Notes: generated by a model from the letters alone, not told the origin. A stretch of 43,540 nucleotides of DNA from an uncultured Oscillospiraceae bacterium (GCA_964431445.1 CAYSJX010000001.1:1-43540); one strand, 5' to 3'; counted from the stretch's first letter, positions 1,011 to 42,098 are shown. Numbers and translations: made by a program.

Positions 1011-1519
1011 AACTTGTAAGTATCAATACTAACACCGTCTTTCAGCTCCCAACCTTCATTGAGACACTGCTGAATGTGCTGTATAGCCCCCATGTAGAAG
1101 TCTCGCAACTCATCAAGCGTCACAAAAGTATGATACAGCACATTCCCTTCCGCATCCTCACCCATCTTGAATTTGATTGGCAAGATGGTCTCGTCCTGTG
1201 AAGCAAGGTCGTACACACTCTTGTAGTTGAATTGGTTTTCTGTGGAAAGCCATACGGGCATATCGTGCCATCGATAGCCCGAAAGTATCTTCTCATCCAC
1301 TTTCTTGTTATAATAGTCTACAATTGTTCCGAGTATCTCTGTATCTGTTGGTTTGTGGTCAAAGCACTGTTCGGCCCATTCTGCCGTGCCATCTTCATTC
1401 TCTATAATGTTCCAACGGATTTTCCACTTGTTTTTGCGAGGGCTAACGCATTCTATGGGCAAGACTCCAGCGCACCCGGAAATATTCTGTATCATAGTCA
1501 TAATGAATTTTGTTAACAT
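1007..1519 (-). CDS. DUF4376-like phage protein, probably a tail-fibre accessory
   Basis: VWLSTENQFNYK...LPIKFKMG...HIQQCLNEGWELKD pattern recalled from DUF4376 proteins; overlaps the RT stop codon. Confidence 0.6.
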   Translation of the reverse strand: MLTKFIMTMIQNISGCAGVLPIECVSPRKNKWKIRWNIIENEDGTAEWAEQCFDHKPTDTEILGTIVDYYNKKVDEKILSGYRWHDMPVWLSTENQFNYKSVYDLASQDETILPIKFKMGEDAEGNVLYHTFVTLDELRDFYMGAIQHIQQCLNEGWELKDGVSIDTYKL

Positions 1520-2961: not shown

Positions 2962-3162
2962 TGCTTTGCCTTCAATTTTCGGGGTCTGACTTATTCGGCT
3001 GACATTGCTGCCCCTACTAAACTCCACCCCACGTTATATTTTCCAGTTTTCCGTGATTGGTCACGCTCTTACTGAGGCTCATTCCCATTGGCACCACATC
3101 GGGGACACGTCCCCATCGTTGTACGCCAAAATTTCTTTGAGACAAAAACGTTCTAATTGTTC

Positions 3163-25578: not shown

Positions 25579-25593
25579 GTGCTTATTAAGCGT
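25579..25593. promoter_or_regulatory. Pseudo-palindromic operator-like site 1
   Basis: GTGCTTATTAAGCGT; 14/15 inverted match to 25747-25761. Confidence 0.5.
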
Positions 25594-25746: not shown

Positions 25747-25761
25747 ACGCTTAACAAGCAC
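25747..25761. promoter_or_regulatory. Pseudo-palindromic operator-like site 2
   Basis: ACGCTTAACAAGCAC (reverse complement GTGCTTGTTAAGCGT). Confidence 0.5.
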
Positions 25762-26002: not shown

Positions 26003-27217
26003 ATGAGCAATCACGATTTTTATTTTCAAGTTTTAGGGTTTGACGCAGAGCTAACAGTCGTAATCCCCAATGATGCAGAAGCGTTTCTGCCAATAGTAAT
26101 CAAAAACGGCAATCGATACAACCCAGAGAACGGTTTTAAGCCTATTGACCCGAAGCCTAAACAGAAGTCTTTGTCCCATAACCAAATAGAGCGGTCTTTG
26201 GCTATCATCAATGAAGCAGCCACATGGTGGAAGCCTCAGTCTAAGGATAAAACTCCAATTGTGGAGAATCCTGCCGAACCCGTAAAGCCTACCACTCCAC
26301 AAACTACTCTTGAAAATCTTATTGCAAAGAGCGTTGCCGAGCTGTCCGTAAATAGCGTTATGGAAACCGCAAAGCCTTTCATTGAAAAGTATGTTTCCGA
26401 AACATTCGGAATCCTGCCAAAGGCTATAGAAGTAAAGACCGAGACAGACACAAAGAAAGTAACAGGCTTCACGCATCATGAGTTTGAAACTATCCTCAAA
26501 CTTGTTGCCGCCGACATTCCGGTATTCCTTACGGGTCCCGCTGGGTGTGGAAAGAATGTTATCTGCAAGCAAATTGCAGAAGCCCTCGGCAAAGAGTTCT
26601 ATTTCTCAAACGCTGTAACGCAGGAGTATAAGATAACAGGCTTTATCGATGCCAACGGCAAGTATCAAGAAACCCAGTTCTACAAGGCGTTCACACAAGG
26701 TGGCGTTTTCATGTTGGATGAAATGGACGCTTCAACTCCCGAAGTGCTTGTGATACTCAATGCTGCCATCGCAAACCGCTACTTTGACTTTCCTATTGGA
26801 AGAGTTGAAGCCCATCCCGATTTTCGTATCGTTGCAGCAGGTAACACATACGGAACTGGCGCAGACATCGAATATACCGGACGTTTCCAGCTTGACGCAT
26901 CAAGCCTTGACCGATTCGCCATCATTGAAGTTTCATATGATCAGGATATAGAGTTAGCCATTGCAGGAGGAGACAAAGAGGTTGTACAGTTCGTTCATGC
27001 TTTCCGTGAAGCACTATCTGCCGCCGACATTAAGTTTACGGTGTCATACCGAGCCATAGAGCGACTTGTAAAGCTCAAATCAATGTTCGACACACAAAAG
27101 GCTATCCAACTCGCCGTATTGCGTGGTATGGACAAAGACGATGCCCAGATGCTTGCCAAAAACTTGCCGACAGTGAACAATCAGTATGTTTATGAACTCA
27201 AAAAGATGTTGAAGTAA
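26003..27217 (+). CDS. MoxR/CbbQ/NirQ-type AAA+ ATPase
   Basis: Walker A GPAGCGKN, Walker B FMLDEMD, AHPDFRIVAAGN, arginine finger LDASSLDRF, SYR sensor. Confidence 0.9.
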   Translation: MSNHDFYFQVLGFDAELTVVIPNDAEAFLPIVIKNGNRYNPENGFKPIDPKPKQKSLSHNQIERSLAIINEAATWWKPQSKDKTPIVENPAEPVKPTTPQTTLENLIAKSVAELSVNSVMETAKPFIEKYVSETFGILPKAIEVKTETDTKKVTGFTHHEFETILKLVAADIPVFLTGPAGCGKNVICKQIAEALGKEFYFSNAVTQEYKITGFIDANGKYQETQFYKAFTQGGVFMLDEMDASTPEVLVILNAAIANRYFDFPIGRVEAHPDFRIVAAGNTYGTGADIEYTGRFQLDASSLDRFAIIEVSYDQDIELAIAGGDKEVVQFVHAFREALSAADIKFTVSYRAIERLVKLKSMFDTQKAIQLAVLRGMDKDDAQMLAKNLPTVNNQYVYELKKMLK

Positions 27218-28068
27218 TGAGAAAAGGTTCTTTTATATTTGAAACATTTAATGGTGTAAACGAGTTCTTGAACGTGATAGGAAAGCGGAAACCGAATATG
27301 GTCTTCAAACATGCGACACTCTCAAGCGAGCATGGCGATGCTGAATTTACCATGACAAAAGACTACGCCGAAAGTGAGCAACTTATGGCTGCAGGTTACA
27401 AAGAAGGTCTGAATGACTTGAAGAAGAGCAAGGGTGCTAAGATTACACACACAAGCAATGTCCGCAAGAACATCCCCCAAACGGGGGTTGTTGGGTACGC
27501 TCCTCACGTTCCAAATGCAATTGCTGGGATACCACAAAGTATGATTGCACAAAGAAAAATTGAGCAGCACGCAAAAGTTGTTACAATTGTGTACGATGGT
27601 GGTGCCCATGCATCCGTTAATGCAGAACGATTTGTCAAGGCAGGACGTCACTTGCTCGATGTCGTAATGATGTTGGAATTGCAGGGATATCGTGTTAGGG
27701 TTGATATTCAAGATGCGTTTTGTACGAACAAGGAGAAAGCAATATGTCGTATTATGGTGAAGACTCATCGCCAACCAATCAATCCTCTCAAAATATCCTA
27801 TCTGCTTCTACACCCATCTTTCTTCCGTAGACAAGGCTTCAAGTGGTTAGAGACCACTCCAGAACTAACAAACAACACGTTCGTTGATGGATATGGCAGA
27901 CCTTTATACTTTCAAGTCAATTCTGATGGTGCTTCAACCGATGAAATCCGTGAGTATCTGAAAGAGCGTGGTTTGTTGGAAAGCGGAACGTTCTTTACCA
28001 ACTTCTATGAAGCAGAGAAAAATTCAGCAGAAGAACTCGTCAGACTAATGGGTATTAAAAAGAAATAA
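27217..28068 (+). CDS. VWA-like partner of the AAA+ ATPase
   Basis: Translationally coupled (TAATG). GYAPHVPNAIAGIP then VTIVYDGGAHAS, a degenerate MIDAS-like strand; HPSFFRR. MoxR-VWA pairing is established. Confidence 0.6.
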   Translation: MRKGSFIFETFNGVNEFLNVIGKRKPNMVFKHATLSSEHGDAEFTMTKDYAESEQLMAAGYKEGLNDLKKSKGAKITHTSNVRKNIPQTGVVGYAPHVPNAIAGIPQSMIAQRKIEQHAKVVTIVYDGGAHASVNAERFVKAGRHLLDVVMMLELQGYRVRVDIQDAFCTNKEKAICRIMVKTHRQPINPLKISYLLLHPSFFRRQGFKWLETTPELTNNTFVDGYGRPLYFQVNSDGASTDEIREYLKERGLLESGTFFTNFYEAEKNSAEELVRLMGIKKK

Positions 28069-28106
28069 GTTTAACCGGGAGTTATCTCCCACAATACGCA
28101 ATAACT

Positions 28107-28982
28107 ATGAGAGAATCAGTATTAGCAGTAAAAGACCTTGCCAACCGAGCAGGACAAGGCATCAGCATGAACCCTGAAAGAATGGGAGAGCATCTTCTTA
28201 ACGAACTTGAATGCGGCTTGAACGCATTCTTGGCAAAGATGCCCGAAGAATTGCAGGATGTGTACGAGAAGCGTTATATCGCCAAATATAGCGAGTGGCT
28301 GCAAGCGATGAGCAGAACGTTCTCCGTGATGATAACAGGGCCAAGCAAGTTCAATAACCGAAGGCATGAGAAAATGAACAACTACGAGCATTCTGCCCGT
28401 GAGCGTTTTGAGACTTGGAAAGAGAAAGTTCTTAAACGTGTGAACCGCCGACAACGTTTGGTCGGTTGGGCTGAGATTGAACGCTTGCAGAACAAGCTCG
28501 ACAAACTCACCGAGTTGCAGGAGAAGATGAAAGCAGTGAACAAGATCGTACGCAACAAGAAATTATCCGAGGTTGAGCAGTGTGAAGAACTGGAAGCCCT
28601 TGGCTTGTCAAAGCAGACAATCAACGAGATTATGGCAGAACCTCAATACTCATTTCAGAAAAAAGGCTTCGCTACCTACCAACTATCCAACAACCTTGCC
28701 AAAATCAAGGCAACGGAGCAGGCGATTAAACGCCATACGACAATGGCTACCACTGACGACAAGGAATTTACCTTTGACGGTGGGATAGTCGCTGTATGCA
28801 ACTCTGACGAGCGAATACGGATATATTTCGATGAAGTGCCCGATGACGAAACGAGAAAGATGCTCAAAAGCAACGCTTTCAAGTGGTCGCCAACGAACAA
28901 GGCATGGCAGAGACAACTCACTTCAAATGCGATGTACTCTCTGAAACACTTCGTAAAATTGCCTAACTTGATGATTAACTGA
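28107..28982 (+). CDS. DUF3560-like / polyvalent-protein-associated domain protein
   Basis: SVMITGPSKF and RIRIYFDEVPDDETRKMLKSNAFKWSPTNKAWQRQLT motifs recalled from phage/plasmid DUF3560-type proteins. Confidence 0.55.
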   Translation: MRESVLAVKDLANRAGQGISMNPERMGEHLLNELECGLNAFLAKMPEELQDVYEKRYIAKYSEWLQAMSRTFSVMITGPSKFNNRRHEKMNNYEHSARERFETWKEKVLKRVNRRQRLVGWAEIERLQNKLDKLTELQEKMKAVNKIVRNKKLSEVEQCEELEALGLSKQTINEIMAEPQYSFQKKGFATYQLSNNLAKIKATEQAIKRHTTMATTDDKEFTFDGGIVAVCNSDERIRIYFDEVPDDETRKMLKSNAFKWSPTNKAWQRQLTSNAMYSLKHFVKLPNLMIN

Positions 28983-29052: not shown

Positions 29053-29289
29053 ATGGGAAGAAAGATATTACACGTTGAGCTAAGGAACCCAATCGATGGT
29101 GAAAGACATTATTACTTTGGCTCGAAAGCCGCCATATTTCAGCGTTTCACTGCTGAGCAGGTGGGTATAACTTATTACTCACTGAAGAACATCAGTATAA
29201 CAAAAGAAGAGCCGTATGTGAACAGACACTGTACGATACGTCAAGGAGAACTAATAGCATCGGAAACGAAAACAAAGGAGGGAAAATGA
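29053..29289 (+). CDS. Small basic hypothetical protein (78 aa), possibly DNA-binding
   Basis: ATG at 29053 after an A-rich leader (MGRKILHVEL...HYYFGSKAAIF); overlaps the next gene (ATGA). Confidence 0.7.
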   Translation: MGRKILHVELRNPIDGERHYYFGSKAAIFQRFTAEQVGITYYSLKNISITKEEPYVNRHCTIRQGELIASETKTKEGK

Positions 29290-30056
29290 TAGGAGCAATG
29301 GTTGGTGATATTGTTGGTTCACGCTTTGAGTTCAACAATACGAGTGATCCAAATTTCACGTTGTTCACTGACGAATGCAGTTTTACTGACGATAGCATCT
29401 GCACGTTGGCAATTGGCTACGCTCTCGTGAACGGCATCAGTTATGAGGAAAGCATACGTTCTTGGTGCTCGATATTCAAGTTCCCTATGGGTGGCTATGG
29501 TGGTAGTTTTGCCCGTTGGCTTGCTTCTGACCATCCCCAACCTTATAACAGCTATGGCAATGGCTCTGCAATGCGTGTATCGCCCGTGGCTTGGTGGTTC
29601 GATACTTTGGAGGACGTTCAGCGTGAAGCAGAGAAGACGGCACTGCCAACCCACAACCACCCCGAGGGTGTGAAAGGTGCTGTGGCTACTGCAACCGCCA
29701 TATTCTTAGCACGGAAATATGGGAAGCCTGCAATGCTCGCTGCCATGACTGAGTTCTATCCGCAATGGATTGAGCCTTTGTATGGTCGCAACAAGTTTGA
29801 CGAGACTTGTCAAGGCACCATGCCAGTAGTGTTCGGCATCATCAATAAGGCTAACGACTTTGAGGAGGCCATACGAGATGCTATTGCAGTCGGTGGCGAT
29901 AGCGACACCATTGGAGCGATAGTTGGCTCAATAGCGGAAGCAATATGGGGTATACCGAAAGTCGTTTCAGATGTTGCGCTTAGTTATCTTCCTGCAATCA
30001 TGGAGAGCAATGTTGCCGAGTTTTACAAAACTTTAATTGAGAGACGAAATGGATAA
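29286..30056 (+). CDS. ADP-ribosylglycohydrolase (DraG/ARH family)
   Basis: GAMVGDIVGS, FTDDS, GNGSAMRVSP, THNHP and GGDSDTIGAIVGSIA metal-binding motifs. Confidence 0.95.
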   Translation: MIGAMVGDIVGSRFEFNNTSDPNFTLFTDECSFTDDSICTLAIGYALVNGISYEESIRSWCSIFKFPMGGYGGSFARWLASDHPQPYNSYGNGSAMRVSPVAWWFDTLEDVQREAEKTALPTHNHPEGVKGAVATATAIFLARKYGKPAMLAAMTEFYPQWIEPLYGRNKFDETCQGTMPVVFGIINKANDFEEAIRDAIAVGGDSDTIGAIVGSIAEAIWGIPKVVSDVALSYLPAIMESNVAEFYKTLIERRNG

Positions 30057-30375: not shown

Positions 30376-30414
30376 AAAAAAGAGGGGCAAGACATTTTCC
30401 TGCCCCTCTTTTTT
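30374..30414. terminator. Bidirectional intrinsic terminator
   Basis: AGAGGGGCA / TGCCCCTCT stem flanked by an A-run and a T-run, between two convergent stop codons. Confidence 0.9.
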
Positions 30415-33280
30415 ATTTGTACTTTGGTTTGTATCCGTAAATACCTTTCTTGCTGTCGTAAACTCTTTCGTAATCTACGATGTCTTTTGCATCTTGTTCT
30501 ATTACTTCAACTTTTACAAACCATTTGTCTTCGATTTTATCATATCGTGCTTCTGCTACTCTAAATTTCGAGCCACGTTGCAGGAATATTTCTGCTTCGT
30601 TTATATAGACGGGTTTGCTCTTGCCATCCCAAAATCCGTCTGGTCCCTTGACCTTTGAATTATAATGATTGTATGGTGCTGCATATAGGGCTTGCGTTCC
30701 CTTTGGACAATAGATTTCAAGATGAACTTTCGGATCTCCGTACTTGTTGTCTCCTCCAGTGCCACTGAAAGTAGCATTCATGTGAGAACTTGTTGAACAG
30801 AATGATGGGTCTGTGCCCATCCTGCCTATTAACTGTCTTTCTTCATGTTGCTTGTATGCTTCTATCTTGTCATCTATTTCTTTTTGTAGAGCAGGAGTGA
30901 TTTTCTTATGTTTTGCAGCGTACTTTGCTTTTAGTCTTGCAGCGTAATTGTCAATATTTCGATTTAGTACATTAACATCAAGTCCTCCAGTTTTAAGAGT
31001 GAAGAAATCAGCACGTTCATCACGTACTATCCAACAATCATCACGAAGCCGTGTCCGTGCAATGGTTTCTGTCATTGCTTCGATAAATGGCTTGTCTCTC
31101 ACGACATAACCGCTATCGTATTCAAGCCAACCATCAAGACCTCTCAGAAGTCGTGTAATTGATGAAGAATTAGCCGTGTAATCCTCCGCTGCTTCCTTAA
31201 ATGTTCGTGATGCTTTACCATAAGCATCAACTGCATCTTTGAAATAGTAATTATCTGCATCATCTGCATTGCTGAATTGGAGAGCATTCTTTTTTCTTGC
31301 ATCGGTAAAGCACTCTTCACCAAACATAACGTGTTTGTCTCCTGCGCCTTTCTTTGCAAGTCTTGTTGCATTCGCTTTTTGGAGAGCAGTCCATTTTTTG
31401 TCCAGTTCTGAATAACTTTTTGATATGACGGATATATCGCTTTGTGCTGCAATATCATTTTCGACATTTGACAATAACTCAGCCAGTTTCTTTGCTCCCT
31501 TGTTCTTCGCCACGTAATCCTTGACTGGTTGTAATTTGGACTCAATATCCGCTACGCCAATCTTGTAATTAACGATACCGAGTTGTTTTGTATAGGCATC
31601 TTGTGCAACTTTCCACGTTGGATATACCGTATGTGGCTTCAAATATGTTGGGTCTGCAACATACTTGATTTCCGTTTCTATCAACGCTTTCTGCTGTTCT
31701 AATACAGAACTGTACTTCCATGTATTTAACGGCTTGGATGCAATTGTAGCCATCTTCTGTTCTACCGCATCGAACACTTGATGGAGTTCAGCAGAAGTAA
31801 ACTGCTGCTTCCATGTGTGAACGTCCGGTATAAGAGCGGACAAAGCCTTTTCGTCCTGCTTGATTGCAGACACTTGCTTTGCAATGGTACGAGCTTCTGT
31901 ATTCGCTAACGAAATGTTCTTTGCATTGATATACTCCTGCAACTTTGTGAGGTCGATTTCTGGATAATTCTGAGCCACGTTTGCGACATTTGTAGCCATC
32001 TTGATAATCTTTTGATTCTTGATGGCACGTTCCGCCCAACGCTTGCGTATCGCTTCACGCTCCTCCTCTGTCTTGACACGTATTTTCTTTTTCTTGTTGA
32101 TGTAGTCTTGGTTGTCCTGCACCCAATATGGCATTGACGTGGCAGTCTCAACACGATTCTTGTTTTTGTCCCACCACTCATAGAAGTCATTGTTCGGCTT
32201 GCGTATCAAGTCTTTGCTACGCTTTGGCTGTTCCCCGTTAAGAATGGCTTTCTGCATTTCGACAAACTCATCTTGTTCCGCCAGTATAGGCACAACAAAA
32301 CACCTGCACTGAGGATGCCACCCCTTGAATACAAAATCCTTTGGGTACACACCCTTTGTACTGGTGTCGTCATTGTTGGCCGCTGACAAATCATCACAAA
32401 TGTCGTGTGCGGGGTGGTGATTAGAACGCTTCACACGGTAGCCGACAACGAAATCCATACGTTCCCATCGATCTTGTTCTGCACTGCGGTACGCCATGTT
32501 GGTTTCCGTTCTCGTCAGCCGCATTGCATTTTTGTATGAACTTCGATATACGCCTTGTCCGGGGTGGTAGTTGCGAGGATTGAAGTTCTCCCACGTTACG
32601 GCACCCGTCTGTGGGTCTATAACTTTACGCTTCCACCTGCGCCCGTATATCGGTTTCGTACCAATAAGTTCTCCAGTTTCTTCATCATAGATTTTCTCTT
32701 CTCCAACCTTGACACGAAACCGTCTGAACATCATGTCGGGTTCTTGAAGATATTTGCGCACATTTCTGCTTACAGTGGCTGCGCTGTCTCCCTGCCCGAG
32801 AGAGACCGTAAGAGCCACCTCCATTTCGGTCTTGAGGTTTCCGACATACTTCCACACGTTCTGCGAAAGATTAAGCCCTCCATAGGCTGATTTGCGTTTG
32901 AAGAAACTATCCATTGCTTGTTGGTTGCGACTGAACCAACGGGCAAAATGGTTGTCTTCTTTCAGACCTTTGCCGAAAATCGATTCTATGAGCGCATCAC
33001 AAGAAAGGTTGGCGTACTCCCATTCGGAGGACACGCCACCCTTGATTTCATTGTACACGGCTGAATACAGCCCCCGTAAGATGTTATTTGCTTTTTCGGA
33101 TAACTTTGTATTATCTCCGAAAGAAAACGCACCAGACGAGCCCAAATCGCCATTAGCCGTCAATTTGAGCAACTCATCCACTGCCGTTGCATAATGTTGC
33201 CTTACTTTGTCTGCATATTGCTCCGTTCTTGTGAACAGTCCGGCTGCATATTTGTCGTAATCGATTTTCTTTTTGGCCAT
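30413..33280 (-). CDS. MuF (SPP1 gp7-like) minor head protein fused to a C-terminal ADP-ribosyltransferase
   Basis: MuF motifs RLTRTETNMAY, DICDDL and GWHPQCRC. The C-terminal VIP2-like ART has YT...ITRLLRG, WIVRDE (R), FCSTS (S) and NEAEIFLQRGSKFRV (ExE). Lies downstream of the portal. Confidence 0.88.
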   Translation of the reverse strand: MAKKKIDYDKYAAGLFTRTEQYADKVRQHYATAVDELLKLTANGDLGSSGAFSFGDNTKLSEKANNILRGLYSAVYNEIKGGVSSEWEYANLSCDALIESIFGKGLKEDNHFARWFSRNQQAMDSFFKRKSAYGGLNLSQNVWKYVGNLKTEMEVALTVSLGQGDSAATVSRNVRKYLQEPDMMFRRFRVKVGEEKIYDEETGELIGTKPIYGRRWKRKVIDPQTGAVTWENFNPRNYHPGQGVYRSSYKNAMRLTRTETNMAYRSAEQDRWERMDFVVGYRVKRSNHHPAHDICDDLSAANNDDTSTKGVYPKDFVFKGWHPQCRCFVVPILAEQDEFVEMQKAILNGEQPKRSKDLIRKPNNDFYEWWDKNKNRVETATSMPYWVQDNQDYINKKKKIRVKTEEEREAIRKRWAERAIKNQKIIKMATNVANVAQNYPEIDLTKLQEYINAKNISLANTEARTIAKQVSAIKQDEKALSALIPDVHTWKQQFTSAELHQVFDAVEQKMATIASKPLNTWKYSSVLEQQKALIETEIKYVADPTYLKPHTVYPTWKVAQDAYTKQLGIVNYKIGVADIESKLQPVKDYVAKNKGAKKLAELLSNVENDIAAQSDISVISKSYSELDKKWTALQKANATRLAKKGAGDKHVMFGEECFTDARKKNALQFSNADDADNYYFKDAVDAYGKASRTFKEAAEDYTANSSSITRLLRGLDGWLEYDSGYVVRDKPFIEAMTETIARTRLRDDCWIVRDERADFFTLKTGGLDVNVLNRNIDNYAARLKAKYAAKHKKITPALQKEIDDKIEAYKQHEERQLIGRMGTDPSFCSTSSHMNATFSGTGGDNKYGDPKVHLEIYCPKGTQALYAAPYNHYNSKVKGPDGFWDGKSKPVYINEAEIFLQRGSKFRVAEARYDKIEDKWFVKVEVIEQDAKDIVDYERVYDSKKGIYGYKPKYK

Positions 33281-34967: not shown

Positions 34968-36446
34968 TTAAAACGGTATCAAGTCATCTACTTCCACATC
35001 ATCAGCAAGTTCTGCTTCTTCGTTGTCAGAGAAGTAGTTAATAGCATAACCGAGCAAATCCACATATTCATCGTGAGCCTTTGAAGGGAAACCGCAAATC
35101 TCATCTATAAACTCATCATTCCATTCACCATCTACGATATAGACGCGCCCACACTCGACTTTCGGGGCAACTGCATGAAGACGCACGTCCTTTGGGTCTT
35201 TGGGTGTGGGTGTATAAGTCACGTTAAGGTCAGTGGAGACCTCAAGTTGTTGAACCACAGATTTGCCATTTGCCTTTGGCTCAACACGGAGCGTGCTCTG
35301 CCCACTGTCGTAGTCGTTGGCATAAAGGTAATCGGGTAGGAATTTCAGAAGGTCGGGAAACGACTTCCATACCTTCTTTGCGCAAACGATATAGATGTTG
35401 TTCTTTATCTTGCACGCTCCAATGATGCCCGATGGGTCATTGTCGGTCTTTTTCTTTTTTTCGTCATAGGCTGTATCGAGAAAGAAGTGCATAGTCTCAC
35501 GAAAACGTAAGGCACGAAAATCGGCGAATGAAATTCGTCTGAACCACGTTTCTTTGATAATGTTACCACCATCTGCGGTAGGTGTCTGCATATACTGCCC
35601 GGCATAGCCCCTGCTGCCCAAATCTGTCTTGGCTTCATTCAGCACGTTTCTGTTCAGTCGTCTTGCATCTAACAGGCCATCCACATAGAACTGTCGTAGC
35701 GAAGATGGCTTCACGTCATCACAATCCTCAGCCGGCAAGCAAATGTGGCGTATGTTGTCGCCTTTCTTTTTCAACAGATAACCCGTAACATCATCCTCAT
35801 GTAGTCTCTGCATAATAGTTACAACTGGAGTGTTGGCTTTATCCACCTTACGGCTTGATAGTGTCTTGGTGTGCTCGTTGGCTTGCACTCGCATTGATTC
35901 AGACTCAGCTTGCTTCGGGTTTACAGGATCGTCATTGATAATAACGTGTGCGTGAAAACCAGTAATCGTTGCGCCCGTAGAAGTAGCATAGCGATATCCA
36001 GTAGCAGTGTTCTCGTAGTTTTGTTTGCCCGATTTGTCCTTTCGTATCTGTATGTCGAAAAGCAACTGAAACTTGTCAGACTGAATAATGTCCTTTGACT
36101 TTGTAGCGTGCTCAATAGAAAGGCCGCCCGAATAAGAGTTTGTGATTATTCGGATGGTCGGGTCAAGTACCCACAACCACACTGGCCACATGATGGTAAC
36201 GATGGTTGATTTGGTTGTGCCTGGTGGAATGTTCACGATAAGGTCATACGGCTTCGGCTCTCGGTTCACAATCGAAACCGAGAGCTTCTGCAACTCCTCA
36301 CACAAGAACGGAATATGCCAGTTAAAGACTGGTGTCTCTTTGATTATAACGTCCCAAAACGTCTGCACAAAGAAAAAGAAGTCTTTTCTACATTTATCCG
36401 CTACAACTTGTAGAGCGAGACTCGTATAATCTATCCGTCGGATCAT
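34968..36446 (-). CDS. terL: Terminase large subunit
   Basis: Walker A NIPPGTTKS, IINDDP, IMQRLHEDD, GQYMQTP, FLDTA, and nuclease motif FPSKAHDEYVD. Confidence 0.95.
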   Translation of the reverse strand: MIRRIDYTSLALQVVADKCRKDFFFFVQTFWDVIIKETPVFNWHIPFLCEELQKLSVSIVNREPKPYDLIVNIPPGTTKSTIVTIMWPVWLWVLDPTIRIITNSYSGGLSIEHATKSKDIIQSDKFQLLFDIQIRKDKSGKQNYENTATGYRYATSTGATITGFHAHVIINDDPVNPKQAESESMRVQANEHTKTLSSRKVDKANTPVVTIMQRLHEDDVTGYLLKKKGDNIRHICLPAEDCDDVKPSSLRQFYVDGLLDARRLNRNVLNEAKTDLGSRGYAGQYMQTPTADGGNIIKETWFRRISFADFRALRFRETMHFFLDTAYDEKKKKTDNDPSGIIGACKIKNNIYIVCAKKVWKSFPDLLKFLPDYLYANDYDSGQSTLRVEPKANGKSVVQQLEVSTDLNVTYTPTPKDPKDVRLHAVAPKVECGRVYIVDGEWNDEFIDEICGFPSKAHDEYVDLLGYAINYFSDNEEAELADDVEVDDLIPF

Positions 36447-36880
36447 TCTTCTTTCTTGTTGATTATGTCAAGCCCAATACTGAGCAGCACGTCTCGCTGT
36501 TCGGGTGATAATTTAGACAGGTCAAGTTCAGAGCCTTTGAGTAGGTCTTTGCCGTCACGTCCCGTTATCTCGCTGCGCTCTGTGTAGCCACGGTCTTTCA
36601 TCTGAGTCTTGGCATAAAAAATTATCATCGTTGTATCACCCTCTTTCATTTTTTTCAGTATAAGGCTTTCGGCAAAGTCCTTTTGCAGTTCCTTTACATC
36701 ATCCGCCTTTTCCTTGAAGTCAGGATCCTCGTTGTAGTAGCGATAGTATGTCATGCGTGATATATTGCACGCACGGCACGCTGATGCAACGATACCGCTA
36801 TTCTTGGAAAGTGCATCGAGAAGGTCTTCCTTCTCCTTGGCGACCCTCTCGTCAATTTTCTGTTTATCACGTTCTGCCAT
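36443..36880 (-). CDS. terS: Terminase small subunit (HTH)
   Basis: GIVASACRACNISRMTYYRY helix-turn-helix, IIFYAKT...RGY; directly upstream of terL. Confidence 0.8.
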   Translation of the reverse strand: MAERDKQKIDERVAKEKEDLLDALSKNSGIVASACRACNISRMTYYRYYNEDPDFKEKADDVKELQKDFAESLILKKMKEGDTTMIIFYAKTQMKDRGYTERSEITGRDGKDLLKGSELDLSKLSPEQRDVLLSIGLDIINKKEE

Positions 36881-37961
36881 GTTTCTTGTCTCTGTTTTGA
36901 ACGTCCCTATACAAGTCGCCTACAAGAATACGATAGTTGCGCTTCTTGGGGTCGCCTGCAAGCAGGGTTTGGTACAATTTCTGGTATGTCTTTACGGACG
37001 TGGCTTCGGTGCATCGAGCGTACACTTTCTTGCAGATTTCATAACCCGGATAATCGTCCGGGTTCTTGGCTGCTTTCTTCATTTCCTCAATGAACATAGC
37101 CTTGTAGTCCTTTCCCTTCTCCAAATCAAACTTATTGTCCTGCTTGGACGAACGGAACATATCTGTGTCGTGATAGAGCATTACAAGGTCTGCGTTCGGC
37201 TCCCGTCTCAGAATGCGCTGATACAAGTCTGGGTAAAACTCCAAAACCTTTGGAAGGCTCTTGATTGTGTCAATAGAGAAAAATTGCGATATGCGGAGCT
37301 TATTCAGTGCTACGCCTACTTTGTATAGGTAGATGTAGGTGATAGGAATTTGAAGCCCCGTACGCTGTATATAGAGCCAAATGTCTTTGTCTCGCCAATC
37401 GTAAATCGGATAGATGAATGTCGATTTCGTCATCGATGAAATCGCACTCCTGCGTTGCAGGCTTTCAGAGCATCGCAAACCAACCATCTGCGGTATGTCC
37501 TTGAAGATTTTCTCACCGAATACTTGGTAGCTCATTCCCATTCTGAAAGCCGTGTGATTGCGTATGGCAAACTTTGGCATTGGACGCACCCAAACACTTT
37601 CCTGCCCCGGCTCCCAACAAATAAAGCTCTCGTCATTCGCCAACTTGTTACAGCAGTTGTAGTGTTTGATGGGCAGACAAAACCAAAAAAACTTTGCGCC
37701 TAACGCCATAAACTTGCTTCTCCATTCAAGAACTAACTTCTCCACATCGGGATAGATGGCCTCTTCATCGAAGAACGTAATCATCAGTCGTGCAAACGAT
37801 ATGCCGTATTTCTGCATCGTCTTGATAACAATGTCAGCCATACAGATGCTATCCTTTCCGCCCGAGAAACTCATCGAGACGGTCTTGTTATTGCGGAACG
37901 CTTCAAGAACCCTGCGCTCTGCCGCTTCCACAACATTGCATTGTAAGTCTTTGATGTACAT
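36867..37961 (-). CDS. PP-loop / PAPS-reductase-family protein (IbrA-like)
   Basis: SFSGGKDS PP-loop, FFDEEAIYP, VGLRCSESLQR, YPIYDWRDKDIW. Confidence 0.85.
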   Translation of the reverse strand: MYIKDLQCNVVEAAERRVLEAFRNNKTVSMSFSGGKDSICMADIVIKTMQKYGISFARLMITFFDEEAIYPDVEKLVLEWRSKFMALGAKFFWFCLPIKHYNCCNKLANDESFICWEPGQESVWVRPMPKFAIRNHTAFRMGMSYQVFGEKIFKDIPQMVGLRCSESLQRRSAISSMTKSTFIYPIYDWRDKDIWLYIQRTGLQIPITYIYLYKVGVALNKLRISQFFSIDTIKSLPKVLEFYPDLYQRILRREPNADLVMLYHDTDMFRSSKQDNKFDLEKGKDYKAMFIEEMKKAAKNPDDYPGYEICKKVYARCTEATSVKTYQKLYQTLLAGDPKKRNYRILVGDLYRDVQNRDKKHGRT

Positions 37962-37974
37962 AAAGCGTCCCTCC

Positions 37975-38508
37975 TTACCCTCGTCTTAACACTTGTGCCT
38001 TGCTAAACTTTTGGTCTCCTCTTGATGTAACCAGTTTTAAGAATGTTTCCCGGTCAATCTTGGAAAGTCTGAAAATCTCCTCACGGCTCATGCCGAGTTT
38101 TTTTGAAATCTCGTCCACTTGCAATCCTTCATCGAGCAATTTCTTAACAATGTGCTCCATAGGCTCAAGCAAGTGAGTACCACGCGCACGATTGAAAGTA
38201 ACGGTTCCTGCCATATCGTCCGTTGCATTCTCATGTGCAACAATCACAACTGGGATTTTGTTGCCGAGAAGCGTTTTCAACGGCTCACGCCCCGACACCA
38301 TCCAGCGGTGGAAACCGTCAATAATGGTATAGTCGGGGCGAATCACGATAGGAAAGCAAAAACCATTGTTCAGAATACTCTCCGTGAGCAAGTCAAGGTT
38401 CTTCTTCAAAACCTTGTTAGGGTTGTAGTCGTTGGGCTTGACCAAATCACGGTCAACGATCTGCAAGTTTCGCAATGGTGCGAATAGGTCTTTGTCTTTC
38501 TTTGCCAT
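37975..38508 (-). CDS. ParB/Srx-domain protein (IbrB-like)
   Basis: PNDYNPN, IIDGFHRW, TVTFNRARGTH, C-terminal HTH (EISKKLGMSREEI). Confidence 0.85.
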   Translation of the reverse strand: MAKKDKDLFAPLRNLQIVDRDLVKPNDYNPNKVLKKNLDLLTESILNNGFCFPIVIRPDYTIIDGFHRWMVSGREPLKTLLGNKIPVVIVAHENATDDMAGTVTFNRARGTHLLEPMEHIVKKLLDEGLQVDEISKKLGMSREEIFRLSKIDRETFLKLVTSRGDQKFSKAQVLRRG

Positions 38509-38528
38509 AGGTGTTGATTTTTATTTGA

Positions 38529-39116
38529 TTAAATGGTGATTTCTTTGCCACAATGCGGGCAAATCATTGTGCGGGCAGTCTGCATCCCACTTTCAATATC
38601 TTGCCGTTCTTCATCCTGGTCGTCTCGCTTCTCCTGCGGTATTTCGTCCACCTGCTTCTCGTTGCTCTGCGGTTTGGGGGCCGGTTGCGAGTAGTCCACG
38701 CCCATATTGTCCTTTACAGACTCGTTGATGATGGCATCGAGATAGTCAGTACCAAAGCCGATGATGTCAAGTTCCCCCACCTCACGGATGATATCCTCAA
38801 TCTTGGTGAAGTCTACGTACGACATTGACTGAATCTTGTTGTCTTCAATAACGATTTTTAGCTTCTGTTTGTCTGTCAGACCACGCATGATGCGTACCTC
38901 CCCCTCTGTCTTTCCGAGGTGCTGTAAGGCAAGAACCTTGCCGTGGCCGCAAAGGATTTTGAAATCCTCGTCTACGATAATTGGGTAGTACTGCCCGTAG
39001 GTTTCCATGCTCTTTGCCATTGCGGCAATCTGTTCCTGCGGATGGATGTTAGGGTTCTTCTCATATGGAACGAGCTTTGCAAGTTCCACAATCTTTGTTT
39101 CGTGCTTTACTGCCAT
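38529..39116 (-). CDS. ParB N-terminal domain protein with C-terminal zinc-ribbon half motif
   Basis: LVPYEKNPNIH, PIIVDED..ILCGHGK, IEDNK, terminal CPHCG. Confidence 0.85.
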   Translation of the reverse strand: MAVKHETKIVELAKLVPYEKNPNIHPQEQIAAMAKSMETYGQYYPIIVDEDFKILCGHGKVLALQHLGKTEGEVRIMRGLTDKQKLKIVIEDNKIQSMSYVDFTKIEDIIREVGELDIIGFGTDYLDAIINESVKDNMGVDYSQPAPKPQSNEKQVDEIPQEKRDDQDEERQDIESGMQTARTMICPHCGKEITI

Positions 39117-39922
39117 GATGTATTACTTTTTGTATTGATAAATTCTTTTGCCGATGCGATATAAGGTGCCGCATCTTTCACCATTTGCGGATTGATGTCC
39201 CATAGTTCCTGCCAACCGTTCTGTGTTGTGCCTACCCATTGACGAGCTGGCCACACTCCAGTTCCAACGATATAGCCGTTCTTCCAGTTGTATATGGGAG
39301 GGGTATTGTCGTTCAAGAAGTAGTGTATCACCGCCATAACGTCCTCGTGCTTCCAGTGTGCTATTGGTGAGAAGCGAGTAACGCCTTTTGCATCAGTATA
39401 GATGTTCCGCCCCTTACCACCAACATAATTTCCGTCTTGAAGTCTGCGACCCAAACATATGATGTCAAGGTGCTGCTCCTTGAAGTAGATGGCTTGTCCT
39501 CTGTGTTGCAGAATATGGAACCACTGCGCTGCATACTTGGAATCGGTGGGGAAGAGCATTTCGGGATGATCCGCAACATACTTGATGTCAAGTTTCGGGT
39601 TGTCCACGATTGTAAGTCCTTTCGGAGCATGAGCCTTGCACCATTCCACAAAGCCCGGATACTCAATCTTGGAAGCAGTGCATAACACGCATTTGTTAAT
39701 TCCAGCACGCTCACATACGACTTGAAGGGCGAGACTATCCTTGCCACCGCTCCACGCATAAGCAACGTTCTTTCCTGCGGTCTTTGCCTTGATGTCTGAA
39801 ACGGCATCAGCAACCAACCTCTCCGCTTCCTCACGGGAGATTAGTTGCTCGATGTTGTTCCACGCCTTGACAAAATCCTCGTTCTTGGACGATTGCTTTT
39901 TGCCTAAAACGTACTTTGCCAT
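39107..39922 (-). CDS. Second PP-loop / PAPS-reductase-like protein
   Basis: AWSGGKDSLAL, LGRRLQDGN, RFSPIAHWKHEDV. Confidence 0.8.
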   Translation of the reverse strand: MAKYVLGKKQSSKNEDFVKAWNNIEQLISREEAERLVADAVSDIKAKTAGKNVAYAWSGGKDSLALQVVCERAGINKCVLCTASKIEYPGFVEWCKAHAPKGLTIVDNPKLDIKYVADHPEMLFPTDSKYAAQWFHILQHRGQAIYFKEQHLDIICLGRRLQDGNYVGGKGRNIYTDAKGVTRFSPIAHWKHEDVMAVIHYFLNDNTPPIYNWKNGYIVGTGVWPARQWVGTTQNGWQELWDINPQMVKDAAPYIASAKEFINTKSNTSWQ

Positions 39923-39924
39923 AC

Positions 39925-40545
39925 TCAGTCGAATTGTAGTGCCATACCTATCTGAACGGACTTCGTGCCACCGTCATACTTCATCTGAAGCCAGTCTGTC
40001 GGGGTGACTTTCCAACGTGCGTTAGCAATGAAGCCCGGCTTTGTCCTGCATGAGTAACCTGCGTTCACGACAAACATACGGTGCGCCCATCCACCAACAA
40101 ACTGCAATCTGTCCCCGTCACAGAACTTTTTGCCGTTATAAATGTTCTCCCATGTTCCATCAACCATAAAGCCAAGAGGGAGCTTGTATGTGGCAGATAG
40201 TGTATGTTTGTATAAGTTCGCCTTTGTGTCGTAGATGGAGCGAGAGAGAACATAGAACTTCTTTGCAATGTTCGCATTGAGCCACACCTGCGGAATGAAC
40301 GCTTCTTTGTTGATGTTGTACTGCAAGACTGGTGTGATACTGAAATGATCCCCGATGTCCTGCTTGTAGCCCATAAAAGGCGCAATACTCACATCATTGC
40401 TGTTGTGGAGACTAACCGTAACTGGGAGCCATACACGGAACTTGGTAGGCTGAGTGATGCCATCGTATACCTGCGCACGGGCTTTCATGCCGAGCAGAAT
40501 ACTGAGGGCTGATAGAATGAGAATAATTCTGATACGATACTTCAT
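39925..40545 (-). CDS. Exported protein, predicted small outer-membrane beta-barrel
   Basis: Signal peptide MKYRIRIILILSALSILLGMKARA|Q (AxA cleavage, Gln at +1); repeated amphipathic aromatic-rich strands; ends IGMALQFD. Confidence 0.65.
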   Translation of the reverse strand: MKYRIRIILILSALSILLGMKARAQVYDGITQPTKFRVWLPVTVSLHNSNDVSIAPFMGYKQDIGDHFSITPVLQYNINKEAFIPQVWLNANIAKKFYVLSRSIYDTKANLYKHTLSATYKLPLGFMVDGTWENIYNGKKFCDGDRLQFVGGWAHRMFVVNAGYSCRTKPGFIANARWKVTPTDWLQMKYDGGTKSVQIGMALQFD

Positions 40546-40572
40546 GTTCTTTTGCGTTTTAAGATGATTAAA

Positions 40573-42027
40573 TTACTTGTTGATGGTCTCTAATGTCTTT
40601 TGTGGTAAAAGGCGAGAAATCGCCCCGGACAAGCCAATGGTGAGCAGTGAGCCTGCCACAATCATAGGGACGTTTCCGTTGAGATTGCCAAATGCAAAGA
40701 TTGGCAGACCGATTACGATACTTGCGAGAATACCGTAGAAGATACCCCTCTCTGTCATGTTCTTGCCGTTGATGGCGAATATGGTCGGGAGCATAACTGA
40801 ACTGCGAAGCGTTCCATAGAACAAGAACAGGTATGTAATGGTAAGCCCAGGAATGTTCGCTACTGCTATTGCCAATACGCATACGATAACCATAACAATG
40901 CGAGCGATGTTGATAGAAGAGTAAGTCTTGCCGTTGATAGTTACGCTCTCCCCGTCAGCCTTGCCGTCTGAAAGTCTCATAACAACATCATGCCCGGCAA
41001 CAGACGATACCGCACAGAAGATGCTATCCACGGTAGAAATCAGTCCTGCCAAAATCATAATGAAGAACAGATACAAGAACCAACGAGGTAAGAAAGCGAT
41101 AACTGCGCCCACGTTTACGAGCTGCGTGTCTGCAATGTCAAGTCCTGCACCTGCTGCGAACAGACCGAAGCAAGCAAGCGATGTCGGCACGATACCGAAG
41201 ATGAACGCTGCCGAAATCATTGTTCGCTTCACTTTGTCCTGCTTCACACAGAACACTCTCTGCCAAAACATCTGGTCGCCAAACGTGCCCGAAAGCAGAC
41301 CGATTGTGGTAGGCAGGCCAAACGACAACATTACAGCGATACCAGTTGTGTCGAACAAGTGGCTATAATCGCCAGTGATACCACCAAGACCATGAATAAG
41401 GGTGCCGAGTCCCACATTAGCGGTCATAATAGGCAGACCGAGCAGCAAAACAATAGCAATAAATCCCATCTTTGCAAAGTCTGTAATAACAGAACCACGT
41501 ATGCCGTTTGTCATTGAGTAGCACAAAGGGATGATGGACAAAATAAGTGTCGTGGTGAAAAAAGGAAGCCCCGTAATCTTATGAAATATTGTTGCCCCTG
41601 CGAGCAACTGCACAGCGAGCGAACAAATCTGCAACCCGAAACTTTCCACAAGGAACATATTGTGCGCCCTCTTGCTATACTTCTCTCTGATGTAGTCGCT
41701 GAATGTCCAACCAACGGGACGGATTGTGCGCATTTTGTTTGCGAAGAACGCAAATAAAATCATCGTAAGAATGTTCGGCACAACGAACCAAAACATTCCT
41801 GCGAGCCCTTGTGTGTATGCTTTCTCTGCCGCTGTGAACATGGATGGTGCCCATACCCATGTCGCCGCCATAGAGAATGCTGTTAATAACCATGGAGCAG
41901 AATGCCCTGCTGCCAAAAACTCTTCTTTTGTCTGTAGCCTTTTTCTCAGACAAAGCACGATGAATACTGTCACTGCAAAAAAGATAGCAATAAGCATCCA
42001 TCCATCAAACTGTGTTAAAATCTGCAT
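40573..42027 (-). CDS. Sodium:solute symporter (SSS) family transporter, DUR3/PutP-like
   Basis: 484 aa with about 13 hydrophobic segments; EEFLAAG, FSMAATWVWAPS, TFSDYIREKY, GIRGSVITD, DQMFWQR, AGLISTVDS. Confidence 0.9.
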   Translation of the reverse strand: MQILTQFDGWMLIAIFFAVTVFIVLCLRKRLQTKEEFLAAGHSAPWLLTAFSMAATWVWAPSMFTAAEKAYTQGLAGMFWFVVPNILTMILFAFFANKMRTIRPVGWTFSDYIREKYSKRAHNMFLVESFGLQICSLAVQLLAGATIFHKITGLPFFTTTLILSIIPLCYSMTNGIRGSVITDFAKMGFIAIVLLLGLPIMTANVGLGTLIHGLGGITGDYSHLFDTTGIAVMLSFGLPTTIGLLSGTFGDQMFWQRVFCVKQDKVKRTMISAAFIFGIVPTSLACFGLFAAGAGLDIADTQLVNVGAVIAFLPRWFLYLFFIMILAGLISTVDSIFCAVSSVAGHDVVMRLSDGKADGESVTINGKTYSSINIARIVMVIVCVLAIAVANIPGLTITYLFLFYGTLRSSVMLPTIFAINGKNMTERGIFYGILASIVIGLPIFAFGNLNGNVPMIVAGSLLTIGLSGAISRLLPQKTLETINK

Positions 42028-42067
42028 AATAAATTTTTGATTGATGTAACATTTGTTATTTCGTATG

Positions 42068-42098
42068 CAAAGGTAATCACAATGCGCCTAACAAGCGC
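42068..42098 (-). promoter_or_regulatory. -7 promoter box plus operator-like site 3, upstream of the transporter-terminase operon
   Basis: TACCTTTG at 42068-42075; GCGCCTAACAAGCGC at 42084-42098 matches site 2 at 12/15. Confidence 0.6.

What the first reader, a model, noticed from the sequence alone, without database searches (positions are those of the whole stretch)
36867..42098. Candidate new system: phage-encoded import pathway (SSS symporter + OM barrel) co-transcribed with two PP-loop enzymes, two ParB proteins and the terminase
Seen: six tightly packed co-oriented genes (gaps under 30 bp or overlaps) behind their own TACCTTTG box, running without a break into terS/terL. Known: ParB-domain genes just upstream of terminases usually accompany DNA-modification enzymes. 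PP-loop enzymes (TilS, QueC, DndC, ThiI) adenylate a substrate and then install an amine or sulfur. SSS members of the DUR3/PutP type import small nitrogenous solutes. Inference: the phage imports a small molecule across both membranes and the PP-loop/ParB complex attaches it to phage DNA or another target at packaging time, which would be a nutrient-dependent anti-restriction modification. I know of no description of a transporter built into such a module.
Basis: partly seen in the sequence, partly recalled or inferred. Interest (0 to 1): 0.85.

Follow-up and report, generated by a model that had tools for sequence, protein, structure and literature searches.

The report
Phage importer-fed IbrAB modification cassette
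This gut-bacteria virus starts its DNA-packaging gene block with an inner-membrane importer gene, a predicted outer-membrane channel, two ATP-using enzymes and two ParB-like proteins, a set that recurs in many related and unrelated phages and likely pulls in a small molecule from outside, which the enzymes would attach, probably to the phage's own DNA.

Summary
Six minus-strand genes (SSS transporter, barrel, PP-loop 1, two ParBs, PP-loop 2) run into terS/terL behind a conserved TAnnTTTG box. The PP-loop 2/ParB2 pair is an IbrA/IbrB-type pair and is predicted to bind.

All six genes occur in order in 59 of 80 related viral loci. Clostridia/Bacilli prophages carry the cassette without the barrel (0 of 45). 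The barrel folds as a 12-stranded outer-membrane pore and is fused to the transporter in two sequences. In non-phage loci the same transporter subfamily, once together with the barrel, sits beside unrelated PP-loop enzymes. Import feeding an adenylating enzyme is therefore well supported.

Both PP-loop enzymes lack PAPS-reductase catalytic motifs. PP-loop 2 models closest to the FAD-synthase/CysD/APS-reductase branch, not TilS/QueC/ThiI. The substrate and the DNA target are inferred, not shown. The cassette is often deleted, and related phages put a ParB-methyltransferase in the same slot.

My literature searches found no paper describing the importer link.

The parts
42084..42098 (.). Palindromic operator-like element just upstream of the -7 box; also at 25579-25593 and 25747-25761 in the region upstream of the scaffold/capsid operon, so likely a phage late-promoter element
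   Evidence: these 3 sites are the only matches in the window; present in 35 of 62 distinct Bacteroidales upstream regions, background 0.007 per 141 nt
42068..42075 (-). TACCTTTG, Bacteroidetes-type -7 promoter element (consensus TAnnTTTG recalled)
   Evidence: 51 of 64 upstream regions vs 32 of 320 controls
42045..42058 (-). Conserved TAACAAATGTTACA element between the -7 box and the SSS start; candidate cassette-specific operator, binder unknown
   Evidence: 47 of 62 Bacteroidales upstream regions, 0 of 69 Clostridia-like, background 0.003 per 141 nt
40573..42027 (-). SSS-family (LeuT-fold) symporter of a distinct DUR3-like subfamily, 484 aa
   Evidence: Pfam SSF E 5e-21; phrog_20720 E 6e-116; profile best PDB hit DUR3 E 5.5e-45 vs vSGLT 5.5e-28; 204 50%-clusters at E<=1e-30
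39925..40545 (-). Signal-peptide-bearing protein predicted to be a 12-stranded outer-membrane beta-barrel channel (KdgM/NanC/COG4313-like), 206 aa
   Evidence: Model pLDDT 92.9; VIA-align Z 19.0/rmsd 2.6/177 aligned to AIDA-I, 18.3/2.3/175 to COG4313, 17.6/2.5/159 to KdgM; fused to SSS in L173 and P0121
39107..39922 (-). PP1: optional PAPS-reductase-like PP-loop enzyme (SGGKDS, GRR), no CysH catalytic motif, 271 aa
   Evidence: phrog_424 E 5e-24; alignment; ECGxH in 0 of 25; absent in 5 of 80 viral loci and 4 of 45 monoderm loci
38529..39116 (-). ParB1: ParB-fold protein of the type fused to phage methyltransferases, C-terminal CPHC knuckle, 195 aa
   Evidence: phrog_620 E 3e-39, phrog_498 E 5e-31; PADLOC MTase_II N-terminal part E 1e-16
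37975..38508 (-). ParB2: IbrB-like ParB-fold protein whose C-terminal tail is predicted to dock on PP2, 177 aa
   Evidence: Pfam ParB_N; phrog_2159 E 2.5e-58; complex prediction
36867..37961 (-). PP2: IbrA-like PP-loop adenylyltransferase-fold enzyme, 364 aa; its stop overlaps the terS start
   Evidence: phrog_2302 E 3e-71; 38.5% to FP_Taranis IbrA; fold closest to FAD synthase/CysD/APS reductase
36443..36880 (-). Terminase small subunit
   Evidence: phrog_4044 E 7e-9
34968..36446 (-). Terminase large subunit
   Evidence: phrog_38 E 1e-87; Pfam Terminase_6C

Best explanation
This is an IbrA/IbrB-type phage cassette at the head of the packaging operon that carries its own likely uptake route: the predicted outer-membrane barrel and the inner-membrane symporter would import a small, probably amine-bearing solute, which the PP-loop enzymes would attach, after ATP-dependent adenylation, most likely to progeny phage DNA. 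Shown by tools: gene order and its conservation; the barrel only in Bacteroidales-type cassettes; the SSS-barrel fusion; the same SSS subfamily beside other PP-loop enzymes; loss of CysH motifs. Predicted by models: the barrel fold and PP2-ParB2 binding. Inferred steps: (1) late expression from a promoter element shared with the head operon; (2) the PP2-ParB2 (IbrA-IbrB) complex, helped by ParB1, is brought to DNA; (3) PP2 adenylates an oxyanion, by analogy with its fold neighbours and DndC/BrxP/Tdp most plausibly a DNA phosphate or base oxygen; (4) the imported nucleophile displaces AMP, and optional PP1 activates or extends it; (5) the mark protects the genome from host nucleases, as a ParB-methyltransferase in the same slot of related phages would.
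For: All six genes in order in 59 of 80 SSS-selected viral loci; 17 of 23 sequence clusters have an intact member and 23 of 23 have the barrel. Reverse search with PP2: 19 of 20 Bacteroidales loci have the SSS, and the 20th keeps its N-terminus. Monoderm prophages: SSS in 45 of 45 (the selection criterion), ParB1+PP2+ParB2 in 42, PP1 in 41, barrel in 0. Barrel found in 0 of 144 non-Bacteroidales SSS loci. SSS-barrel fusion with the signal peptide kept. Distant viral SSS loci: 79 of 80 have cassette genes. Non-phage SSS relatives sit next to an asparagine-synthase-like PP-loop enzyme lacking the N-terminal Cys (8 of 9; the ninth start is uncertain), or next to a 364-aa PP-loop protein. L416 has an Asn-synthase domain, SSS and the barrel in a row. 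A short SSS-like gene fills the same slot in FP_Taranis, L341 and L343 (hhalign probability 95.7, run on L341 and L343). PP2-ParB2 model score 0.70, best control 0.00; 116 of 157 solved and 2 of 215 mismatched pairs reach the mark; runs agree in at least 73% of contacts; partner pLDDT at least 69. The same slot holds a ParB-N6/N4-methylase in L372 and L377, with a SAM decarboxylase in L377. ParB activation of phage DNA-modifying dioxygenases is reported (PMC13229309, passages). PAPS-reductase-domain proteins DndC/SspD/BrxP act in DNA backbone modification (PMC12914056, passages).
Against: No chemistry, modified nucleoside, transport or expression data. The substrate is unidentified: urea-binding polar residues of DUR3 are replaced, and conserved basic residues in the barrel and SSS R408 could point to an anion rather than an amine. 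IbrAB cassettes exist without any transporter (PJN03), so import is not obligatory. The cassette is often deleted, with intact relatives at 91-98.6% identity in five of the cases. Barrel homologues occur chromosomally with no SSS seen nearby (2 of 3 hits in 401 Bacteroidales genomes). In 16 of 80 metagenome SSS loci none of my PP-loop profiles hit; several are short, and one (L416) proved to carry an Asn-synthase domain. Marine and freshwater phage versions, some possibly with diderm hosts, show no barrel. The non-phage PP-loop partners need not act on DNA, so the transporter link does not point to DNA as the target.
Confidence: 0.5

Rival explanations
1. Same import and adenylation chemistry, but the acceptor is not DNA. 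The enzymes ligate the imported solute to a protein (terminase, capsid, a host defence factor) or make a small-molecule or nucleotide product that counters defence or signals.
For: The non-phage partners of this SSS subfamily are asparagine-synthase-like amide ligases, a fold that usually acts on small molecules or peptides (the role is recalled). PP2's nearest solved folds (FAD synthase, CysD) act on small molecules. ParB folds can be plain NTP-binding enzymes (PMC12704722, passages).
Against: There are two ParB-fold genes, and ParB1 matches the N-terminal part of phage methyltransferases. The slot alternates with a ParB-DNA methylase. The position in front of terminase is kept across unrelated phages.
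Confidence: 0.22
2. The cassette is a nutrient-sensing regulator. The solute brought in by the transporter is read by IbrA/IbrB, which control late or lysogenic-conversion genes, as the 'co-activator of prophage gene expression' label implies.
For: The annotation of FP_Taranis homologues. A cassette-specific element sits between promoter and start codon. ParB2 has an HTH-like C-terminal segment by sequence.
Against: A full set of invariant PP-loop catalytic-type residues in PP1 and PP2. Terminase genes stay intact in deletion variants lacking PP2.
Confidence: 0.1
3. Phage phosphorothioation. PP2 is a DndC/SspD/BrxP-like sulfur inserter, and the importer supplies a sulfur compound.
For: Weak PADLOC hits: BrxP E 2.2e-5 for PP2, DndC E 1e-8 to 1e-6 for homologues. 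C95 is present in 61 of 63 PP2 sequences. One metagenome SSS is followed by a PALP-family enzyme.
Against: The cassette has no P-loop ATPase and no cysteine desulfurase; PT synthesis needs a PAPS-domain protein plus an NTPase (PMC12914056). No invariant cysteine, and no CC..CxxC motif in 0 of 63 PP2 and 0 of 25 PP1 sequences.
Confidence: 0.1
4. An auxiliary metabolic or moron unit: PAPS reductases for sulfate assimilation plus a nutrient transporter benefiting the lysogen, with ParB genes adjacent by chance.
For: PHROG labels and papers class such genes as host metabolism (PMC11318856; PMC13369170; PMC12323421; passages). Some deletion variants keep an intact SSS.
Against: ECGxH catalytic motif in 0 of 25 PP1 and 0 of 63 PP2 (motif recalled). 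ParB1 and ParB2 linkage is conserved across phyla. The promoter element is shared with the head operon. Most SSS-retaining deletions are recent.
Confidence: 0.08

Closest known systems
[quoted passage not shown] Faecalibacterium phage FP_Taranis, Flavobacterium phages FCL-2 and 6H)
   Same: PP2 is 38.5% identical to FP_Taranis IbrA over 98% of its length; adjacent ParB-fold partner; position before the terminase in FP_Taranis.
   Different: Here with an SSS importer, an outer-membrane barrel, a second ParB and a second PP-loop enzyme. DUF3440 is detected in distant members but not in this PP2. The passages read call these proteins of unknown function (PMC4541368).
DNA phosphorothioation enzymes DndC / SspD / BrxP (and Tdp)
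   Same: PAPS-reductase-like PP-loop domain; weak profile hits. Adenylated intermediate in the Tdp pathway, seen only as a reference title in PMC12914056.
   Different: No ATPase partner, desulfurase or conserved cysteine cluster; phage late operon; own importer.
Phage ParB-associated DNA modifiers (ParB-methyltransferase fusions; ParB-dependent T-dioxygenases, PMC13229309)
   Same: ParB-fold genes coupled to a modifying enzyme near the terminase; the same slot in related phages L372 and L377.
   Different: The catalytic part is a PP-loop enzyme, and the co-substrate appears to be imported.
DUR3 urea-proton symporter (PDB 9j7c; PMC11840088)
   Same: Best solved relative (E 5.5e-45). W93, W95, D312 and P342 kept as W57, W59, D251 and P281; Y315 and W338 kept aromatic as F254 and F277.
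   Different: Y117 to F81, N305 to L244, Y461 to F401, Q124 to T88; E402 not kept; family-specific N85, Q140, D334 and R408.
KdgM/NanC and COG4313 12-stranded outer-membrane channels
   Same: Fold (Z 17.6, rmsd 2.5, 159 aligned; Z 18.3, rmsd 2.3, 175 aligned). KdgM is among the nearest named Atlas clusters for homologue P0274 (0.93, a lead only).
   Different: About 7-12% identity, no Pfam hit; autotransporter barrels score equally well; phage-encoded.
CysH PAPS/APS reductase (usual AMG label)
   Same: PP-loop SGGKDS, Arg loop and overall fold.
   Different: No ECGxH catalytic tail and no Fe-S motif.

Membership tests
SSS / SSF (PF00474) | Pfam SSF above gathering score | tested here: met
   75.5 bits vs 22.8 cut-off
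SSS / SSF (PF00474) | Ion-coupled solute uptake | not testable with these tools
   D183 in 88/97, S331 in 85/97, T332 in 75/97 (Na2-type positions, recalled); K186 here vs Q in 63/97
DUR3 urea transporters | Trp dyad W95/W338 and TM6 acid D312 | tested here: inconclusive
   W59 in 87/97 and D251 in 90/97 kept; W338 is F277 in 83/97
DUR3 urea transporters | Urea H-bond residues Y117, N305, Y461, Q124 | tested here: not met
   F81 in 90/97, L244 in 87/97, F/W401 in 81/97, T/C/A88 in 83/97
Outer-membrane beta-barrel channel | Signal peptide, amphipathic strands, C-terminal aromatic residue, closed barrel | tested here: met
   Alignment; model pLDDT 92.9; fold matches
KdgM/NanC porins | Family profile match | tested here: inconclusive
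   No Pfam hit; fold Z 17.6, tied with autotransporter and COG4313 barrels; Atlas lead 0.93 with 159 shared features
CysH PAPS/APS reductase | PP-loop and Arg loop | tested here: met
   Invariant S-G-K-D and R residues
CysH PAPS/APS reductase | C-terminal ECG(L/I)H catalytic cysteine (motif recalled) | tested here: not met
   0 of 25 PP1, 0 of 63 PP2
CysH PAPS/APS reductase | CC..CxxC Fe-S motif of APS reductases (recalled) | tested here: not met
   0 of 25 and 0 of 63
IbrA/IbrB | PAPS_reduct protein of PHROG 2302 next to a ParB of PHROG 2159 | tested here: met
   E 2.7e-71 and 2.5e-58; named homologues
IbrA/IbrB | DUF3440 C-terminal domain | tested here: inconclusive
   Not detected in window PP2; present in aligned homologues L241, L244, L245
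IbrA/IbrB | Activation of prophage gene expression | not testable with these tools
   Annotation only
Dnd/Ssp/BREX-4 phosphorothioation | PAPS-reductase-domain protein | tested here: met
   BrxP E 2.2e-5, weak
Dnd/Ssp/BREX-4 phosphorothioation | Adjacent P-loop ATPase (DndD/SspC/BrxC) | tested here: not met
   None among the six genes; requirement from PMC12914056 passages
TilS/QueC/ThiI-type PP-loop amine or sulfur transferases | Closest fold and family profile | tested here: inconclusive
   TilS Z 10.5 (rmsd 3.3, 153 aligned), QueC 7.3 (4.0, 148), ThiI 7.3 (4.1, 150) rank below FAD synthase 14.7 (3.5, 165) and CysD 14.5 (4.0, 163)
Phage DNA hypermodification system | Modified nucleotides in virion DNA | not testable with these tools
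   Only assembled contigs were available

The most novel reading that the evidence does not exclude
A widespread class of phage DNA modification whose chemical group is imported from the environment through a phage-encoded two-membrane uptake path (own porin plus own symporter). A ParB-guided PP-loop adenylyltransferase grafts the group onto progeny DNA, possibly on the backbone. The genome mark would then depend on gut or environmental nutrients. The same importer subfamily would be a general feeder for PP-loop ligases, and thousands of phage 'cysH' AMG calls would be misread.
Probability: 0.4. Interest if true: 0.9.

Novelty: new variant of a known kind. Interest (0 to 1): 0.72.

Why it matters
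Phage PAPS-reductase-like genes are widely reported as sulfur-metabolism AMGs, and no mechanism for IbrA/IbrB turned up in the papers I read. This cassette makes both questions testable. The importer offers a handle on the co-substrate: find what SSS transports and you have the likely group being installed. Natural deletion pairs exist as controls. If the target is DNA, it would be a modification pathway fed by phage-encoded uptake across both membranes, which I did not find described.

Tried and rejected
- In-frame deletions as proof of coupling to terS: 6 of 7 fusions are in frame, but 47-67% of microhomology pairs give in-frame joints anyway (P 0.04-0.26). Dropped.
- Expression: no RNA holder listed. 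DNA contigs of four runs from four studies have depth in 29-30 of 30 bins; no single piece spans the whole stretch.
- Barrel search in 400 genomes of the host bin's own phylum found only the window. That phylum is unnamed and may not be Bacteroidota, so it was not used.
- Sigma-70 promoter and terminator scan was at chance level.
- PADLOC gave no system match.
- SSS tree (near-duplicates, sequences under 425-430 aa and representatives over 560 aa left out; rooted on L083): Bacteroidales clade support 1.0, but deep nodes are weak. No donor or order of events is claimed.
- Annotated phage records: only 2 matched SSS, one of them an unrelated bacterial SSS (L083).
- Neighbours of distant SSS (aminotransferase, PALP enzyme, FAD oxidase, cupin, inositol-1-phosphate synthase) did not converge on one substrate. 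For one search I sent 74 of 116 listed neighbours; for, 40 of 67.
- PP1 was not folded.
- A paper on Bxa phages was not held, so its gene maps and supplements were not seen.
- Literature searches found no paper linking a symporter to IbrAB/PAPS-reductase/ParB genes. The library lacks most subscription journals and I read no supplements.
- A look-up of earlier scan notes by the barrel sequence returned nothing.


Full report
Observation. The six genes are present as described, on the minus strand, with gaps of 27, 2, -10, 20 and 13 bp, a 14-bp overlap with terS and a 4-bp terS/terL overlap. The window is a whole 43.5-kb contig of a tailed phage with capsid, portal, tape-measure and terminase genes. 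Its close relatives lie in Bacteroidales genomes. TACCTTTG at 42068-42075 is one of 6 copies, against 1.22 expected. A TAnnTTTG box precedes SSS in 51 of 64 distinct upstream regions, against 32 of 320 control windows. A palindrome at 42084-42098 recurs only upstream of the head operon, which suggests late expression. A second element at 42045-42058 is cassette-specific, in 47 of 62 regions. No RNA run was listed, so co-transcription stays an inference.

Identity of the parts. The transporter is an SSS member of a distinct subfamily of 204 clusters at E<=1e-30. Its best solved relative is DUR3. Against the DUR3 pocket described in PMC11840088 (passages), the aromatic cage and the TM6 aspartate are kept. 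The four urea-bonding polar residues are not, and N85, Q140, D334 and R408 are family-specific. Urea is therefore unlikely. The 206-aa protein has a signal peptide and a C-terminal Phe. It models at pLDDT 92.9 and matches 12-stranded outer-membrane barrels: AIDA-I Z 19.0, rmsd 2.6, 177 aligned; COG4313 18.3, 2.3, 175; KdgM 17.6, 2.5, 159. Seven basic and four acidic residues are conserved; their orientation was not checked. PP2 and ParB2 are IbrA- and IbrB-like. PP1 is a distant paralogue of PP2 (hhalign probability 97.6). Neither has the CysH ECGxH tail or the Fe-S motif (0 of 25 and 0 of 63; motifs recalled). The PP2 model (pLDDT 88.3) is closest to FAD synthase (Z 14.7, rmsd 3.5, 165 aligned), CysD (14.5, 4.0, 163) and APS reductase (14.3, 4.0, 184), ahead of TilS (10.5), QueC and ThiI (7.3). 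It has weak BrxP similarity, and homologues have weak DndC similarity. A PP2-ParB2 complex scored 0.70 against a best control of 0.00. That mark was reached by 116 of 157 solved and 2 of 215 mismatched pairs; the runs agree in at least 73% of contacts and partner pLDDT is at least 69. The ParB2 tail sits on PP2's invariant YDWxDxDxW stretch. This supports binding but does not show it.

Conservation. Of 80 viral loci selected by SSS, 59 have all six genes in order and 52 also have terS and terL. Of the other 21, 5 natively lack PP1, 3 have a split PP1, 11 carry internal deletions and 2 are cut or interrupted. These loci are redundant. In 23 clusters, 17 have an intact member and all 23 have the barrel, whole or cut. 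Selecting by PP2 instead, 19 of 20 Bacteroidales loci have SSS and one keeps its N-terminus. Selecting by terL gave 39 loci: 23 with SSS, 1 deletion, 6 too short, 4 with a long ParB fusion instead, and 5 with nothing similar. The fusion has an N6/N4 methylase domain in 2 of 3 scanned, and one is followed by a SAM decarboxylase.

Among 80 genome loci, 16 have the barrel-type cassette, 45 Clostridia/Bacilli loci have the cassette without the barrel, and 19 are non-phage contexts. Of 80 distant viral loci, including aquatic-type phages, 79 have cassette genes. The barrel profile found nothing in 144 non-Bacteroidales loci. L173 and P0121 fuse SSS and barrel with the signal peptide kept. FP_Taranis, L341 and L343 use a short SSS-like gene in the same slot.

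The importer tracks PP-loop enzymes. Outside phages the subfamily sits right after an asparagine-synthase-like enzyme (7 of 17 loci examined) or near a 364-aa SGGIDS protein with a partner (5 of 17). The Asn-synthase-like proteins lack the N-terminal cysteine needed to use glutamine (8 of 9; role recalled), which fits an externally supplied amine. L416 places an Asn-synthase domain, SSS and the barrel in a row. The transporter-barrel pair therefore moves as a unit between different PP-loop enzymes.

Against. PJN03 has ParB1-ParB2-PP2 with no importer. Deletions of about 0.9-3.9 kb recur at short microhomologies, five with intact relatives at 91-98.6% identity, so the cassette is dispensable. 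Barrel homologues occur in 2 chromosomal sites without a visible SSS, among 401 Bacteroidales genomes. In 16 of 80 metagenome SSS loci my PP-loop profiles found nothing. Nothing here shows DNA as the target. That step rests on the two ParB genes, the slot shared with a ParB-methylase, ParB-dependent DNA dioxygenases (PMC13229309, passages) and DndC/SspD/BrxP precedent (PMC12914056, passages).

Mechanism and odds. I put import feeding the PP-loop enzymes at about 0.8 and DNA as acceptor at about 0.6, giving 0.5 overall. The rivals are a non-DNA acceptor (0.22), a regulator (0.1), phosphorothioation (0.1) and a metabolic AMG (0.08).

Prior knowledge. The papers read in passages label such genes as PAPS-reductase AMGs (PMC12323421, PMC13369170, PMC11318856), as co-activators (PMC4490671) or as unknown (PMC4541368). 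PMC12704722 (passages) surveys ParB folds with no mention of Ibr. Searches found no description of the importer link. Subscription journals and supplements were not seen. Earlier notes of this scan reported the barrel-less Clostridia cassette and other slot variants, read after I had stated my reading. A look-up by the barrel sequence found nothing.

Verdict. This is a real, conserved and apparently undescribed variant of the IbrA/IbrB cassette with a likely two-membrane uptake route. Its chemistry is open.

Noticed in passing
window 30413-33280 (-) and 29286-30056 (+): Head-morphogenesis protein fused to an ADP-ribosyltransferase (PHROG 'Bxa', E 2e-182), convergent with an ADP-ribosylglycohydrolase.
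   Followed up: no
window 1513-3027 (-): Reverse transcriptase next to tail genes, likely a diversity-generating retroelement.
   Followed up: no
window 26003-28982 (+): Divergent operon: AAA_5 ATPase, DUF7192 protein and a primase-like PHROG match.
   Followed up: no
window 25579-25593 and 25747-25761: Two more copies of the palindrome found at the cassette promoter, in the intergenic region before the scaffold/capsid genes.
   Followed up: partly
L177, L180, L182, L184, L186, L189, L190, L395, L396: Chromosomal operon in diverse bacteria: zinc-ribbon/membrane/Toprim-like protein, TPR protein, Cys-less asparagine-synthase-like enzyme and this SSS subfamily; no PADLOC system match.
   Followed up: partly
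L175, L179, L185, L209, L236, L430, L434, L452: Mostly Patescibacteria-labelled loci with an unnamed 364-aa PP-loop protein, a 230-aa partner, sometimes a cupin, and this SSS. L175/L176 hold two identical copies 11 kb apart.
   Followed up: partly
L322:4296-5297, L341:4430-5515, L343:555-1508: A 317-361 aa reduced SSS-like membrane protein with no Pfam SSF hit fills the importer slot, including in FP_Taranis.
   Followed up: partly
L377:6692-8342: ParB-DNA methylase fusion followed by a SAM decarboxylase directly before terS.
   Followed up: partly
L243:4144-12495: ParB1-SSS separated from PP1-PP2 by inositol-1-phosphate synthase and a GT25 glycosyltransferase.
   Followed up: partly
L004, L008, L011, L046, L069, L075, L076, L330, L300: Independent internal deletions of the cassette, many at 7-16 bp microhomologies, that spare the promoter and terS.
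   Followed up: yes
L018-L034 clade: SSS carries a roughly 90-aa basic C-terminal extension.
   Followed up: no
L162: A MAG labelled Eubacteriales carries the Bacteroidales-type cassette with barrel, possibly a binning error.
   Followed up: no
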